This document shows positions 3,001 to 6,000 of a stretch of DNA of 64,000 nucleotides, one piece after another. The stretch comes from Escherichia coli. Its GTDB lineage: Bacteria; Pseudomonadota; Gammaproteobacteria; Enterobacterales; Enterobacteriaceae. A program made the position numbers. Numbering within the stretch: position 1 is the first letter of the stretch; each line of letters begins with the position of its first letter. Location of the stretch: the NCBI RefSeq assembly GCF_048403405.1, contig NZ_CP183129.1. The stretch is one strand, 5' to 3'.

Positions 3001-6000
3001 CAAGTTGCGCACCCGCTAAAGCGCCTGATGCCGCCCCACCAATACCACGCGCAAGACTGGATGGCTGCTGCGCCTGACCTGCACGAATAGCGCCAAGCCC
3101 CTGCAAGAGTTGTCCGGTATTATTGGCGTAGTTTTGCCCTGCTGTTGCCTGCCCTGATGCCGCATTCATCCCGACATTTAGCAGGTTTCCATAATTTTGC
3201 ATTTGCCCACTAAGCCAATTGTTATAAAGCATGGGCGCAATGGAAGATAACTGGTTACTGGTAGCTGTTGAGCCAAGCCCCCCGGTAGCTTCTGCTGAGA
3301 CAAGGTTCTGATAACGGGCCTGATCTGCCTGTGTTTTATATAAACCAGAACCAAAGAAATCATTCGCGGCTTTATTCTGCCCTTCCAGAGTCATCAGTCC
3401 TTGCAGTTGTTGTAAAGCAGGCAATCCGACTTCTGCATACGGCTTGAGATTATTCATCACCGTATTCCACTGCTCGCGCTGCAAATCAATTGCCTGCTGC
3501 TGGGCCTTCGCCTGGGCTTTAGAGGCACCACCATCACCGCCTTTTTCGTATACGGCACGATTGAGATGTTTATGAGCTATATGGGTAATTAACATTCGCT
3601 GAGTTCCTTATATTGTTGCCGTGTTAACTGATAAAGCGTTACGCCGACGGGTTTACCACATCTGATATATGCATCGGCCAGGTGACCAACACGGGTAGCG
3701 CCAAGCAAACGGATAATTGCCCGTCCGTATTTCGTGGTGTCAGGAACCATGGTGATGCTGTTAAGGAATGGTGAGTTTTCGAGAAGCCATTTGCAGAACA
3801 ATCGATGCCCTTGCAGTGCATATTCACCACGGAATCCGGGGTCGTACACCGCATGGCATTCAACAATGCTATGCCAGAAGTTACGCACTTCATGAACGCC
3901 TGTCAGCACTAATCCTTCGTAGATGCCGAGATATACCGCATCAGGCTTGATGTAGTACGTGTGCCCCGGCTCAACAATATTTTCGGTATTGCCAGGCTCG
4001 TTAAGAAAGGCCTGTAATCGCACCGGGTTATCAATAAATTTTAGTTCCATGCGGTGCCATCCGTTTTCACATACAGCCTGCCAGCGCCTTATCTATTAAC
4101 CCTCGTGCAATTTCATGCAGAGTTGGCGCTACTCCAATTCCTGATTTTTTACGCTGCTCTTCCTGAATTTTCTTTATCGCTTCCATTTGCTTCTCACTTA
4201 TCAATACCGGCTTTACTGAAATAGCCATAACGCCCCCTTAGAACTGTATAAAACAACAGTTATTATAGTTTCGCAAATCGCAATATTCATCATCGTAATT
4301 GCAAAATATGAAACAAATAGCACAAAAAAATGCCACCGCTCAGTAGCTGGTGGCATCGTTCTGTGTGTCAGGTTTTGACAGGTTTTTTATGGACTCTAAA
4401 AACTATATTTATGGTGTCGCATTACTCTTTACGGCAGGCGCTTTTCAGTTCTGCCCTTGCTTCTGGCTCCATTGGTAATTTGATTCGCGATCAGCTATGC
4501 GGATGGTTTGCTGAACAGGCATAACAACTTCTCAGAGGCTGTTTTTTGAACTACGAAAATTTCGTAGTGCTCACTTTCAAAAACGTCACGCCCTTGTACA
4601 CAGGATTTTACGAAAGTCTCGTAAAACACTCTCTGATGCCAGCCAGGTGTTGTGCGCATCAATTCAGTCACATTGTGTTGGTTCAAAATACCGTGTTGTT
4701 GGTTCAGTGTTGGTTCAATAAAAAGAATAAAATCCTTATAAAACAATACTCTTTACAAATTGAACCAACTGAACCAACTGAACCAACACCTTTTCTACGC
4801 ACATGAAGAAGCTCATTCTTCAGATGAGTTATAATCTCCTGGCTGGTAATTGAGTACATAAACGTTTATTTGTCGTCCCTGAATACGTGGTGATTTTCTT
4901 TGGTATCCACGACCGCTGTTTGGTGGGGTTAGCATCCCGGCTTTTTTCAACACTTCAGCAAACTGTTTTGCGTTGAAACCACATGCGATCTCCTTTTCAA
5001 ATGTGGCCGGGAATGTGTAGAAAATCATTGGGCTTTCGTCATGTTCTCCACGCTGACGGTATCCGGCTAAATCTTTGATGGGCAAATCTGCCGGGCTGTA
5101 TGGAAATGGTGCAAAACGGCTAAGCCCATAGGCATTAAGAAATGCCTCCGTTTGTTCAATAATCTGCTGATGCTCTTTGTTACCTGTGCCGAACTCGCGC
5201 AACCATGCGTTATAGCTGTGCTGTATCGCATCACGGCATGTCTGAGCATCCCAGCCTGTTACAACCTCGCCTAACAACAATGCGGCCTCCAGAATGGCAA
5301 ATCGCGCGGCTACACGGTGAACCTGCTCACCATAATCGGGTGGGATCAGGCTTCTCCATCTGCTTTCGCAATCACGAACAGTTTTAATAGCCTGTTGCTG
5401 GTGGTCTGCCAGCCATTTAATCCACTCACGCCCGGCTGCGCCATGGTGATGCTGGTAAGCGTCTTTCAGTGCGTCTGCGTGCTGTTTTCCGTTCTGGTAA
5501 TCGTGAAAGCGTACTGCTTTACTCAACGGAATATTCAGCAGTCGCACCAGTTGCCCGGCTTTGGTTTTTCGCCCGGAAGTAGCGATAAATGTTTCTAAAT
5601 CCATTTCTCCGGTGCTGATTGCCACTGTACGCCAGCGTTTTAGATCCCGGTTTCCACCATCTTTAGCGCCTTGCAGTTTCCCTACACCGTTAAATAACGC
5701 ATAGGCAGACTGTGAAACGCTGACAGGATCAGCGCCCTGACCAACTTCATCAAGCGGCATTAGTCCGTCATTGTGGGCGGCGGCCTCATTTGCCAGCCCC
5801 AGCGCGGTTCCGTACCTCGTCAGCCGCAGTAAATCAGGGTTGCCGTATAAGCTGCTCGCCACGTTTGCCGTGGTGGTCTTACCTGCGCTCGACTGCTCAT
5901 AGAAATGAATGCCGAACCCGTCAGCGCCCACCAGCCCAATCAATGGTGCTGCCAGTGCTGCGCCGATCCCGGTCATCATTGAATAGTTACCAAAGGCCAG

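What the first reader, a model, noticed from the sequence alone, without database searches (positions are those of the whole stretch)
4677..4787. Iteron origin directly 3' of the primase gene, followed by a terminator
Three inverted and three direct copies of the 9-mer TGAACCAAC flank an AT-rich spacer between the primase stop (4813) and a minus-strand intrinsic terminator (4324-4355). This is the classic layout of a Rep-binding origin in phage satellites and suggests the element replicates autonomously.
Basis: partly seen in the sequence, partly recalled or inferred. Interest (0 to 1): 0.5.

Follow-up and report, generated by a model that had tools for sequence, protein, structure and literature searches.

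The report
Replication origin of a phage satellite
The repeat cluster is almost certainly the replication origin of an EcCIMP1-type phage satellite island in E. coli, where the island's own primase-helicase is predicted to bind; this is an ordinary, already established design, apart from a second mirror-image copy of the origin about 7 kb away.

Summary
Six perfect TGAACCAAC copies, three on each strand, flank a 43-bp spacer that is 84% A+T. The cluster begins 25 nt after the primase stop codon, and a strong minus-strand terminator follows it.

The window carries an 18-kb island at yicC. Its primase is 99% identical, and its origin region 98% identical, to those of EcCIMP1, a satellite shown experimentally to be mobilised by a P22-like phage.

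The 918-aa protein combines a zinc-ribbon/TOPRIM primase, a DUF927 helicase homologous to the Rep proteins of staphylococcal pathogenicity islands (SaPIs), and a C-terminal winged-helix domain that matches the SaPIbov Rep C-terminal domain.

Across about 90 related loci the same repeat layout follows the stop codon. There are ten 9-mer classes, and each goes with its own C-terminal sequence type or types. Helicases 97-98% identical in their bodies carry different C-terminal domains and different repeats.

This is the known satellite-type (PICI/SaPI) origin, here a previously undescribed member. A new detail is a second, inverted six-repeat module about 7 kb away, outside the window, on the far side of a block of P22-like ejection-protein genes.

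No replication or binding was tested. Interest is modest.

The parts
4813..7569 (-). pri-rep gene, 918 aa (PGAP name: TOPRIM and DUF927 domain-containing protein, WP_001244102.1). It combines a zinc-ribbon and TOPRIM primase, a DUF927 AAA+ helicase and a C-terminal DNA-binding domain.
   Evidence: ORF and translation. Annotation in the 100%-identical record. Pfam domains: Zn_Ribbon_Prim at aa 34-69, Toprim_3 at 221-318, DUF927 at 365-643. PHROG DNA primase, E = 5e-178. Residues 403-814 match the SaPI Rep chain 8tch_A at E = 2.7e-10. 99% identical to the EcCIMP1 primase.
4846..5028 (-). Codons for the predicted winged-helix C-terminal domain (about aa 849-909). It includes the variable beta-hairpin 'wing' GYQRKSPRIQGRQINVYV, which tracks the repeat type.
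4761..4787 (+). Rep-proximal arm: three head-to-tail 9-mers (TGAACCAAC on the plus strand, GTTGGTTCA in the sense of rep) with a 9-bp period, starting 25 nt after the stop codon.
   Evidence: The same position and period occur in about 90 related loci with ten different 9-mers.
4718..4760 (.). AT-rich spacer (43 bp, 84% A+T), the presumed site of strand opening. It contains a core, TTGTTTTATAAGGA (rep sense), that is conserved across lineages.
   Evidence: Composition. Conservation profile over 60 distinct sequences.
4677..4717 (-). Rep-distal arm: three 9-mers in the opposite orientation at 4709-4717, 4698-4706 and 4677-4685 (spacing 11 and 21 bp, i.e. one and two helical turns).
   Evidence: The 11/21-bp spacing is conserved across lineages. 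EcCIMP1 has 21/21 because of a 10-bp indel.
4481..4660 (-). Decayed fragment of a P22-like anti-repressor gene, not part of the origin. The two palindromes TACGAAAATTTCGTA (4552-4566) and TACGAAAGTCTCGTA (4609-4623) are simply its codons (YEIFV / YETFV).
   Evidence: A 38-bp, 97% match to Klebsiella Lederbergvirus phiKp_30. tblastn fragments lie in two reading frames. The phiKp_30 protein belongs to phrog_1726, anti-repressor.
4324..4357 (-). Intrinsic terminator on the minus strand, ending transcripts that come from pri-rep through the origin.
   Evidence: Terminator scan. RNA fold -26.2 kcal/mol, z = -5.1.
12045..12248 (-). AlpA-like small helix-turn-helix regulator of the island, in the position of the master activator in EcCIMP1.
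   Evidence: Annotation. PHROG excisionase/transcriptional regulator. Role of alpA in EcCIMP1 (PMC11773190).
13424..14683 (-). Tyrosine integrase of the island, next to yicC.
14871..14880 (-). Likely att core at the integrase end (ATCGAATAAG). Its partner ATCGAGTAAG lies outside the window at L001 12431-12440, giving an island of about 18.15 kb.
   Evidence: The same core and the same yicC-yicG site are listed for the PICI CfCIP10159 (PMC6092414 supplement).

Best explanation
Window 4677-4787 is a replication origin of the PICI/SaPI type. It belongs to an 18-kb EcCIMP1-like phage satellite integrated at yicC.

Proposed mechanism (inferred by homology, not shown here):
1. A P22-like helper phage enters lytic growth, and the island's AlpA switches on the leftward operon.
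2. The operon produces a 918-aa Pri-Rep protein.
3. The winged-helix C-terminal domain of Pri-Rep recognises the 9-bp repeats GTTGGTTCA.
4. One helicase ring assembles on the three contiguous repeats next to the gene, and a second ring assembles in the opposite orientation on the three helically phased repeats.
5. The 43-bp, 84% A+T spacer between them is melted, and the rings load themselves and unwind outwards.
6. The fused TOPRIM primase lays primers for the host polymerase.
7. Transcription entering from pri-rep stops at the terminator at 4357-4324.

What is shown: the sequence anatomy, the protein homology and fold, the conservation of the layout, and the covariation. What is inferred: binding, melting and initiation.
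For: - **Statistics.** Six exact 9-mers lie within 111 bp, with 7 in the window against 0.6 expected. In the 40.6 kb around the island, 12 of 12 copies fall in two clusters against 0.31 expected.
- **Element.** The primase is 99% and the origin region 98% identical to EcCIMP1. EcCIMP1 excises, circularises and is transduced when phage Kapi1 is induced (PMC11773190).
- **Layout.** It matches the published definition: repeats immediately downstream of rep, an AT-rich centre, and at least two repeats per side in opposite orientation (PMC9371898; PMC6092414).
- **Conserved architecture.** In about 90 loci the layout is stop codon plus about 25 nt, three tandem 9-mers, a spacer of about 45-55 bp, then inverted copies at +0, +11 and +32. 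This holds while the 9-mer itself takes ten forms, each with its own C-terminal wing type or types.
- **Natural domain swaps.** L035, L036, L039 and L004 are 97-98% identical over 440 aa of helicase body. They are only 55-67% identical in the 42-aa C-terminal segment, and they carry different repeats. Loci with the same repeat can be as low as 67% identical in the helicase body.
- **Purifying selection.** Repeat positions are 95.6% conserved against 58% for neighbouring positions, over 60 distinct sequences. Between the two modules of the island, 54 of 54 repeat columns are identical against 32-39 of 67 other columns.
- **Reverse search.** Of 131 occurrences of the double repeat in viral contigs, 86 lie within 450 nt after a Rep homologue.
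Against: - No experiment on this origin exists. The EcCIMP1 paper never mentions an ori, and it shows excision and transfer, not replication.
- The tested E. coli PICI origin (EcCICFT073) belongs to an unrelated helicase family. Its result therefore transfers only by analogy.
- The C-terminal codons and the repeats are adjacent, so a single recombination tract could move both together without any functional coupling. The matching repeats 7 kb away weaken this objection but do not remove it.
- The mapping is not strictly one-to-one. Two different wing sequences share one hybrid repeat array (L039 and L046).
- The C-terminal domain models have only moderate confidence (mean pLDDT 72-76).
- 39 of the 131 double-repeat hits had no Rep homologue in the DNA fetched. 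Some of those stretches are short, but several are arrays elsewhere.
Confidence: 0.85

Rival explanations
1. The array is mainly a transcriptional control site. Rep or another DNA-binding protein would bind the repeats to regulate pri-rep or the genes downstream, and replication would start elsewhere.
For: In compact relatives, the last tandem array sits just before a TATA-rich stretch and the next gene (ssb, perC). In this island, the second module abuts the perC start, with a TATAAT hexamer between them. Origin repeats commonly double as operators in plasmids (general knowledge).
Against: In the window, the module is followed by a dead gene fragment and a terminator, not a promoter. The promoter scan found no site in 3900-5100. 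The opposed arms around an 84% A+T spacer, placed after a self-loading helicase gene, match the origin layout. No alternative origin candidate was seen.
Confidence: 0.05
2. The module in the window is an inactive relic. The working origin would be the second module near perC, or the island would no longer replicate at all.
For: Where compact relatives have the second half of the origin, this island has a 7-kb insertion bordered by a decayed gene. That could mean the ancestral origin was disrupted.
Against: All six repeats are perfect and are kept in hundreds of E. coli genomes at 95% identity or more. The same 3+3 single-module layout is the only origin in most relatives: 61 short against 18 long among 79 loci. 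Single hits in whole 16-25-kb contigs agree. The Rep ORF is intact. EcCIMP1, with the same arrangement, is mobilised.
Confidence: 0.06
3. The repeats are a packaging (pac) or partition site, recognised by a helper-phage or island protein other than Rep.
For: The packaging signal of EcCIMP1 is unknown (PMC11773190). The array borders a block of P22-like virion genes.
Against: The repeats follow the Rep C-terminal domain type and not the downstream gene content, which differs among loci (ssb, hypotheticals, ejection genes). The same architecture occurs in satellites with quite different packaging modules, including one next to a capsid gene.
Confidence: 0.03

Closest known systems
SaPI replication origins and Rep / PriRep proteins (SaPIbov1, SaPI1, SaPI5) of Staphylococcus aureus
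   Different: The repeats here are 9 bp rather than 5-6 bp. One arm is strictly contiguous (9-bp period) and the other is phased at 11 and 21 bp. The primase is a zinc-ribbon/TOPRIM (P4-alpha-like) domain. The host is E. coli. The island carries a second inverted module 7 kb away.
EcCIMP1, the E. coli MP1 PICI mobilised by P22-like phage Kapi1 (Pick et al. 2025, PMC11773190)
   Same: Same gene order. Primase 99% identical, origin region 98% identical, and the same two repeat modules.
   Different: The integration site differs (yicC here, tRNA-Thr near proA there), as does the integrase. A 10-bp indel changes one repeat spacing from 11 to 21 bp. The modules are 7.0 kb apart here and 8.4 kb apart there. 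The paper does not describe any origin.
EcCICFT073 pri-rep-ori, the experimentally tested E. coli PICI replicon (Fillol-Salom et al. 2018, PMC6092414)
   Same: The layout principle is the same: repeats on both sides of an AT-rich stretch in the gap after pri-rep. Both are islands with int, alpA and perC.
   Different: Its Rep has no detectable similarity to this one, and its repeats are of the CTGTCTACC type.
Phage P4 alpha protein with ori and crr
   Same: The N-terminal primase domain is 33% identical to P4 alpha. The protein is a single polypeptide of primase, helicase and C-terminal origin-binding domain. There are two separated clusters of the same repeat on one small replicon (P4 ori and crr; own knowledge, and PMC6092414).
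   Different: The helicase domain is of the DUF927/SaPI-Rep type, not the P4 type. The repeat sequence differs. Whether the two modules cooperate here is unknown.
Iteron plasmids (R6K, RK2, pPS10, P1, F)
   Same: Clustered short repeats bound by a plasmid-encoded initiator next to an AT-rich unwinding element.
   Different: Those use 17-22-bp direct repeats, an initiator with no helicase activity, and DnaA boxes (own knowledge). Here the repeats are 9 bp in opposed arms, the initiator is itself a helicase-primase, and there is no DnaA box with one mismatch or fewer in 4229-4813.

Membership tests
PICI/SaPI-type replication origin | Lies immediately 3' of the rep (or pri-rep) open reading frame | tested here: met
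   The first repeat starts 25 nt after the stop codon. The same holds in about 90 relatives, at 20-47 nt.
PICI/SaPI-type replication origin | Two sets of repeats flank an AT-rich region, with at least two repeats per side pointing in opposite directions | tested here: met
   3 + 3 exact 9-mers on opposite strands around a 43-bp, 84% A+T spacer.
PICI/SaPI-type replication origin | The cognate initiator is a Rep helicase with a C-terminal winged-helix DNA-binding domain | tested here: met
PICI/SaPI-type replication origin | Repeat sequence is specific to the Rep C-terminal domain | tested here: met
   Ten repeat classes, each confined to its own C-terminal wing type or types. Helicase bodies 97-98% identical carry different C-terminal domains and different repeats. 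Physical linkage is a caveat.
PICI/SaPI-type replication origin | Rep binds and melts the origin, and rep plus ori drives replication of a plasmid | not testable with these tools
   Needs EMSA or footprinting and a plasmid-maintenance assay. This was done for EcCICFT073 and SaPIs only (PMC6092414, PMC9371898).
PICI (Gram-negative phage-inducible chromosomal island) | int, alpA and pri-rep transcribed in one direction; about 10-20 kb; no lysis or full structural module; PICI-specific att site | tested here: met
   Gene map. Size about 18.15 kb between att cores. yicC-yicG is listed as a PICI attachment site.
PICI (Gram-negative phage-inducible chromosomal island) | Induced, replicated and packaged by a helper phage | not testable with these tools
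   Excision, circularisation and transduction were shown for the 99%-identical EcCIMP1, not for this copy. Replication was not measured.
P4-like satellite (alpha / ori / crr) | Alpha-type primase-helicase (P4 family helicase domain) with TGTTCACC repeats; psu, delta and sid genes | tested here: not met
   Only the N-terminal primase domain resembles P4 alpha (aa 8-362, 33%). The helicase is DUF927. The repeat differs. No psu, delta or sid is annotated.
Iteron-plasmid origin (Rep/pi/TrfA type) | 17-22-bp direct repeats in one orientation plus DnaA boxes; initiator without helicase activity | tested here: not met
   9-bp repeats in opposed arms. No DnaA box with one mismatch or fewer in 4229-4813. 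The initiator carries helicase and primase domains.

The most novel reading that the evidence does not exclude
The island may carry a split, two-part origin. The module in the window and its inverted twin lie 7 kb away (8.4 kb in EcCIMP1), bracketing the P22-like ejection-protein genes. On this reading they would work together through Rep-mediated looping, as P4 ori and crr do. Alternatively they could fire as two convergent origins that preferentially amplify the bracketed virion genes after induction. The evidence shows that both modules are under selection. It does not show whether either one suffices alone.
Probability: 0.2. Interest if true: 0.55.

Novelty: new member of a known kind. Interest (0 to 1): 0.3.

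Why it matters
The finding assigns the replication origin, and the likely specificity determinant, of a widespread E. coli satellite family. Sequences matching this origin region occur in about 590 of 5,426 complete genomes, and homologues of the rep gene in about 755. The published description of this family omits its origin.

The natural swaps of C-terminal domain plus repeats give a ready-made set of about ten cognate pairs. These could be used to study how SaPI-Rep-type self-loading helicases read DNA, and to design compatible or incompatible satellite replicons.

The twin-module arrangement offers a simple test of whether such origins can act at a distance. None of this changes the general picture of satellite replication.

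Tried and rejected
- **Structured RNA.** Rfam at a permissive threshold gave only sub-threshold plant miRNA-precursor hits caused by the inverted repeat. Rejected.
- **Palindromes as operators.** The palindromes at 4552-4566 and 4609-4623 turned out to be codons of a decayed anti-repressor gene.
- **Truncated half-origin.** I first thought the module was a truncated half of a longer origin, because some relatives have 12 repeats in about 340 bp. I rejected it as 'defective' after finding that the same 3+3 form is the commonest layout and that the other half exists 7 kb away.
- **Orthologue of the tested EcCICFT073 Rep.** No similarity was found.
- **DnaA boxes and sigma-70 promoter.** None was found in the origin gap.
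- **IHF site.** Reading the conserved spacer core against the IHF consensus by eye gave only poor matches, so I did not pursue it.
- **First repeat-counting script.** It timed out and was rewritten.

Full report
**Observation**

TGAACCAAC occurs on the minus strand at 4677, 4698 and 4709, and on the plus strand at 4761, 4770 and 4779. The 64-kb window holds 7 exact copies against 0.6 expected by chance. Six of them lie within these 111 bp.

The 43 bp between the two arms (4718-4760) are 84% A+T, in a window that is 49% G+C overall.

The 919-codon ORF on the minus strand ends at 4813-4815, 25 nt from the nearest repeat. The annotated start is one codon downstream of the ORF's first codon, giving 918 aa.

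On the same strand, a hairpin followed by seven T at 4357-4324 folds at -26.2 kcal/mol, with z = -5.1.

**What the element is**

The window is E. coli chromosome, 100% identical to NZ_OZ040716.1. Positions 1 to about 14880 belong to an island inserted beside yicC. Its gene order is:

- integrase, a hypothetical gene, and a 67-aa AlpA-like regulator;
- an antirepressor, DUF4222, an ash-family protein and several small ORFs;
- the primase and the repeat cluster;
- a block of P22-like virion genes (DUF2824/head morphogenesis and the ejection proteins), continuing to the left beyond the window;
- perC.

An att-like core (ATCGAATAAG and ATCGAGTAAG) bounds about 18.15 kb. The same core and the same site are listed for the PICI CfCIP10159.

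The gene order matches EcCIMP1, a phage-inducible chromosomal island of E. coli MP1. EcCIMP1 excises, circularises and is transduced when the P22-like phage Kapi1 is induced, under the control of its alpA (PMC11773190). The two primases are 99% identical, and the 600 bp after the stop codon are 98% identical. That paper does not mention an origin.

**The protein next door**

Pfam finds a primase zinc ribbon (aa 34-69), a TOPRIM domain (221-318) and DUF927 (365-643).

- The N-terminal third is 33% identical to the primase domain of P4 alpha.
- Residues 403-814 match, by sequence, the solved 'pathogenicity island protein' 8tch at E = 2.7e-10. They match the SCCmec helicase Cch weakly.
- A model of the last 215 residues matches Cch with Foldseek probability 1.0.

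The gene is therefore a primase fused to a SaPI-Rep-type helicase with a winged-helix tail. According to PMC9371898, this tail recognises the repeats that lie just downstream of rep in SaPIs.

**Comparative test**

I collected 9 divergent homologues from E. coli genomes and one Klebsiella phage record, and 80 loci from viral contigs.

In all but one of them (L074, whose Rep ORF is truncated) the DNA after the stop codon has the same plan:

1. about 20-47 nt after the stop codon;
2. two or three contiguous 9-mers;
3. a spacer of about 45-55 bp, AT-rich in the loci examined;
4. inverted copies at +0, +11 and +32 bp.

Sixty-one of 79 loci stop there, often running straight into ssb. Eighteen add a second module within about 340 bp, which is a true mirror image in some lineages and less regular in others.

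The 9-mer itself differs between lineages. Each form goes with its own sequence, or sequences, in the C-terminal hairpin:

| Repeat (rep sense) | C-terminal hairpin |
|---|---|
| GTTGGTTCA | QRKSPRIxGRQINVYV |
| GGTGGTTCA | |
| GTCGGTTCA | |
| GTTGTCTCA | QGRVREGGRQIRVYV |
| GTTGCCTCA | |
| GTTGTCCCA | |
| CTTGTCCCA | |
| GCGGGTTAT | |
| ACGGGTTAY | |
| GCGGGATAT | |

The pairing does not simply follow overall relatedness. L035, L036, L039 and L004 are 97-98% identical over 440 residues of helicase body, yet only 55-67% identical in the 42-residue C-terminal segment, and they carry different repeats. Loci that share GTTGGTTCA can be as low as 67% identical in the body.

Within the GTTGGTTCA class, repeat positions are 95.6% conserved across 60 distinct sequences. 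Neighbouring positions inside the module are 58% conserved.

In the reverse direction, I searched viral contigs for the double repeat alone. Of 131 occurrences, 86 lay within 450 nt after a Rep homologue.

One caveat is that the C-terminal codons and the origin are adjacent, so one recombination tract can carry both.

**A second module outside the window**

The reverse search also found the repeat about 7.5 kb from rep in contigs of this same island type.

In the flanking DNA of the identical genome record, six further exact copies lie at L001 13242-13362. This is 2.3-2.5 kb to the left of window position 1, just upstream of perC. EcCIMP1 has the same arrangement.

This module is an inverted copy of the one in the window. 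In all pairwise comparisons, 54 of 54 repeat columns are identical, against 32-39 of 67 other columns when a module is compared with its twin.

In rep sense the island reads:

rep - [three tandem repeats, AT spacer, three phased repeats] - 7.0 kb - [three phased repeats, AT spacer, three tandem repeats] - perC

The 7.0 kb holds the anti-repressor remnant, the terminator and the P22-like ejection-protein genes.

Some compact relatives (L005, L011) have these two mirror modules side by side. Either the virion-gene block was inserted into the centre of a compact origin, or the module was duplicated in inverted orientation. I cannot tell which.

The second module also explains why the 601-bp query found two places per genome.

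**Mechanism**

Shown here:

- the anatomy of the cluster;
- its statistical excess;
- the homology and fold of the neighbouring protein;
- conservation of the layout;
- concerted change of the repeats with the C-terminal domain;
- selection on the repeats.

Inferred from SaPI Rep biochemistry (PMC9371898) and from the tested EcCICFT073 replicon (PMC6092414):

- the winged helix binds the 9-mers;
- two rings assemble head to head on the opposed arms;
- the AT-rich spacer melts;
- the helicase loads itself, and the fused primase starts synthesis.

EcCICFT073 supports this only by analogy. Its Rep is unrelated in sequence and its repeats differ.

No DnaA box lies in the gap, which fits a self-contained initiator.

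**Comparison and novelty**

This is the origin design described for SaPIs, and in 2018 for Gram-negative PICIs, so the kind is known.

What I did not find in the literature searched:

- the origin of the EcCIMP1 family itself;
- its 9-bp repeat and asymmetric arm geometry (9-bp contiguous against 11/21-bp phased);
- the natural swaps of C-terminal domain and repeats;
- the twin modules 7-8 kb apart.

I rate it a new member of a known kind, with modest interest. The most novel reading still open is that the two modules cooperate at a distance, like P4 ori and crr.

**Things that led nowhere**

- Rfam gave only sub-threshold hairpin artefacts.
- The palindromes between origin and terminator are codons of a decayed anti-repressor gene.
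- The promoter scan found nothing in the gap.

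Noticed in passing
outside the window: L001 13242-13362 (about 2.3-2.5 kb left of window position 1); EcCIMP1 L012 9853-9973: A second cluster of six exact TGAACCAAC copies lies just upstream of perC. It is an inverted copy of the origin module in the window. The two modules bracket the 7.0-kb block of P22-like ejection-protein genes (8.4 kb in EcCIMP1). Repeat columns are 54/54 identical against 32-39/67 for the other columns.
   Followed up: yes
window 4707-4708, compared with L012 18402-18434: EcCIMP1 has 10 extra bp (ACACGGTATT) between two distal repeats, so its spacing is 21/21 bp instead of 11/21 bp. Both keep the repeats on one face of the helix.
   Followed up: partly
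window 4481-4660 (minus strand): Frameshifted remnant of an anti-repressor gene (phrog_1726). It has a 38-bp, 97% match to Klebsiella Lederbergvirus phiKp_30. The two TACGAAA..TTTCGTA palindromes are its codons, not regulatory sites.
   Followed up: yes
loci L039, L046, L049, L051-L053 and others (27 viral-contig loci), 30-140 nt after the rep stop codon: Hybrid origins mix two repeat types symmetrically: GTTGGTTCA, GTTGGTTCA, GTTGCCTCA, then the spacer, then the mirrored order. The same array is paired with two different C-terminal wings (GFQRKSPRIDGRQIRVYV and GYQKKGPRIEGRQPWFYV). One origin may serve two Rep specificities.
   Followed up: partly
window 4727-4740 (TCCTTATAAAACAA on the plus strand): A core inside the AT-rich spacer, TTGTTTTATAAGGA in rep sense, is conserved across lineages that have different repeats. 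Its role is unknown. By eye it is a poor match to the IHF consensus.
   Followed up: partly
L093 4493-4870 (EcCICFT073 pri-rep) compared with L006 4020-4396: The N-terminal ~125 residues of the unrelated EcCICFT073 Pri-Rep are nearly the same as the N-terminal domain of the 711-aa DUF927 proteins of other E. coli PICIs. This domain seems to be shuffled between different helicase families.
   Followed up: no
window 1-4228 (minus strand), continuing left of the window: The satellite carries homologues of P22 gp14-like (DUF2824), gp7-like and gp20-like ejection proteins, plus a larger protein. These are unusual cargo for a PICI. They sit between the two origin modules, behind their own terminator-delimited unit.
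   Followed up: partly
L001 9878-12294 and 12431-12440: An ISEc23 (IS66-family) copy lies about 140 bp outside the att core at the perC end of the island, between the island and yicG. dinD, which lies between yicC and yicG in K-12 (own knowledge), is absent from the annotation.
   Followed up: no
L001 13205-13241: A TATAAT hexamer and the perC ribosome-binding site lie within about 35 nt of the tandem arm of the second module. Rep binding there could therefore affect perC expression.
   Followed up: no
window 45237-45245: The only other exact TGAACCAAC in the window is a solitary copy in chromosomal DNA, consistent with chance.
   Followed up: no
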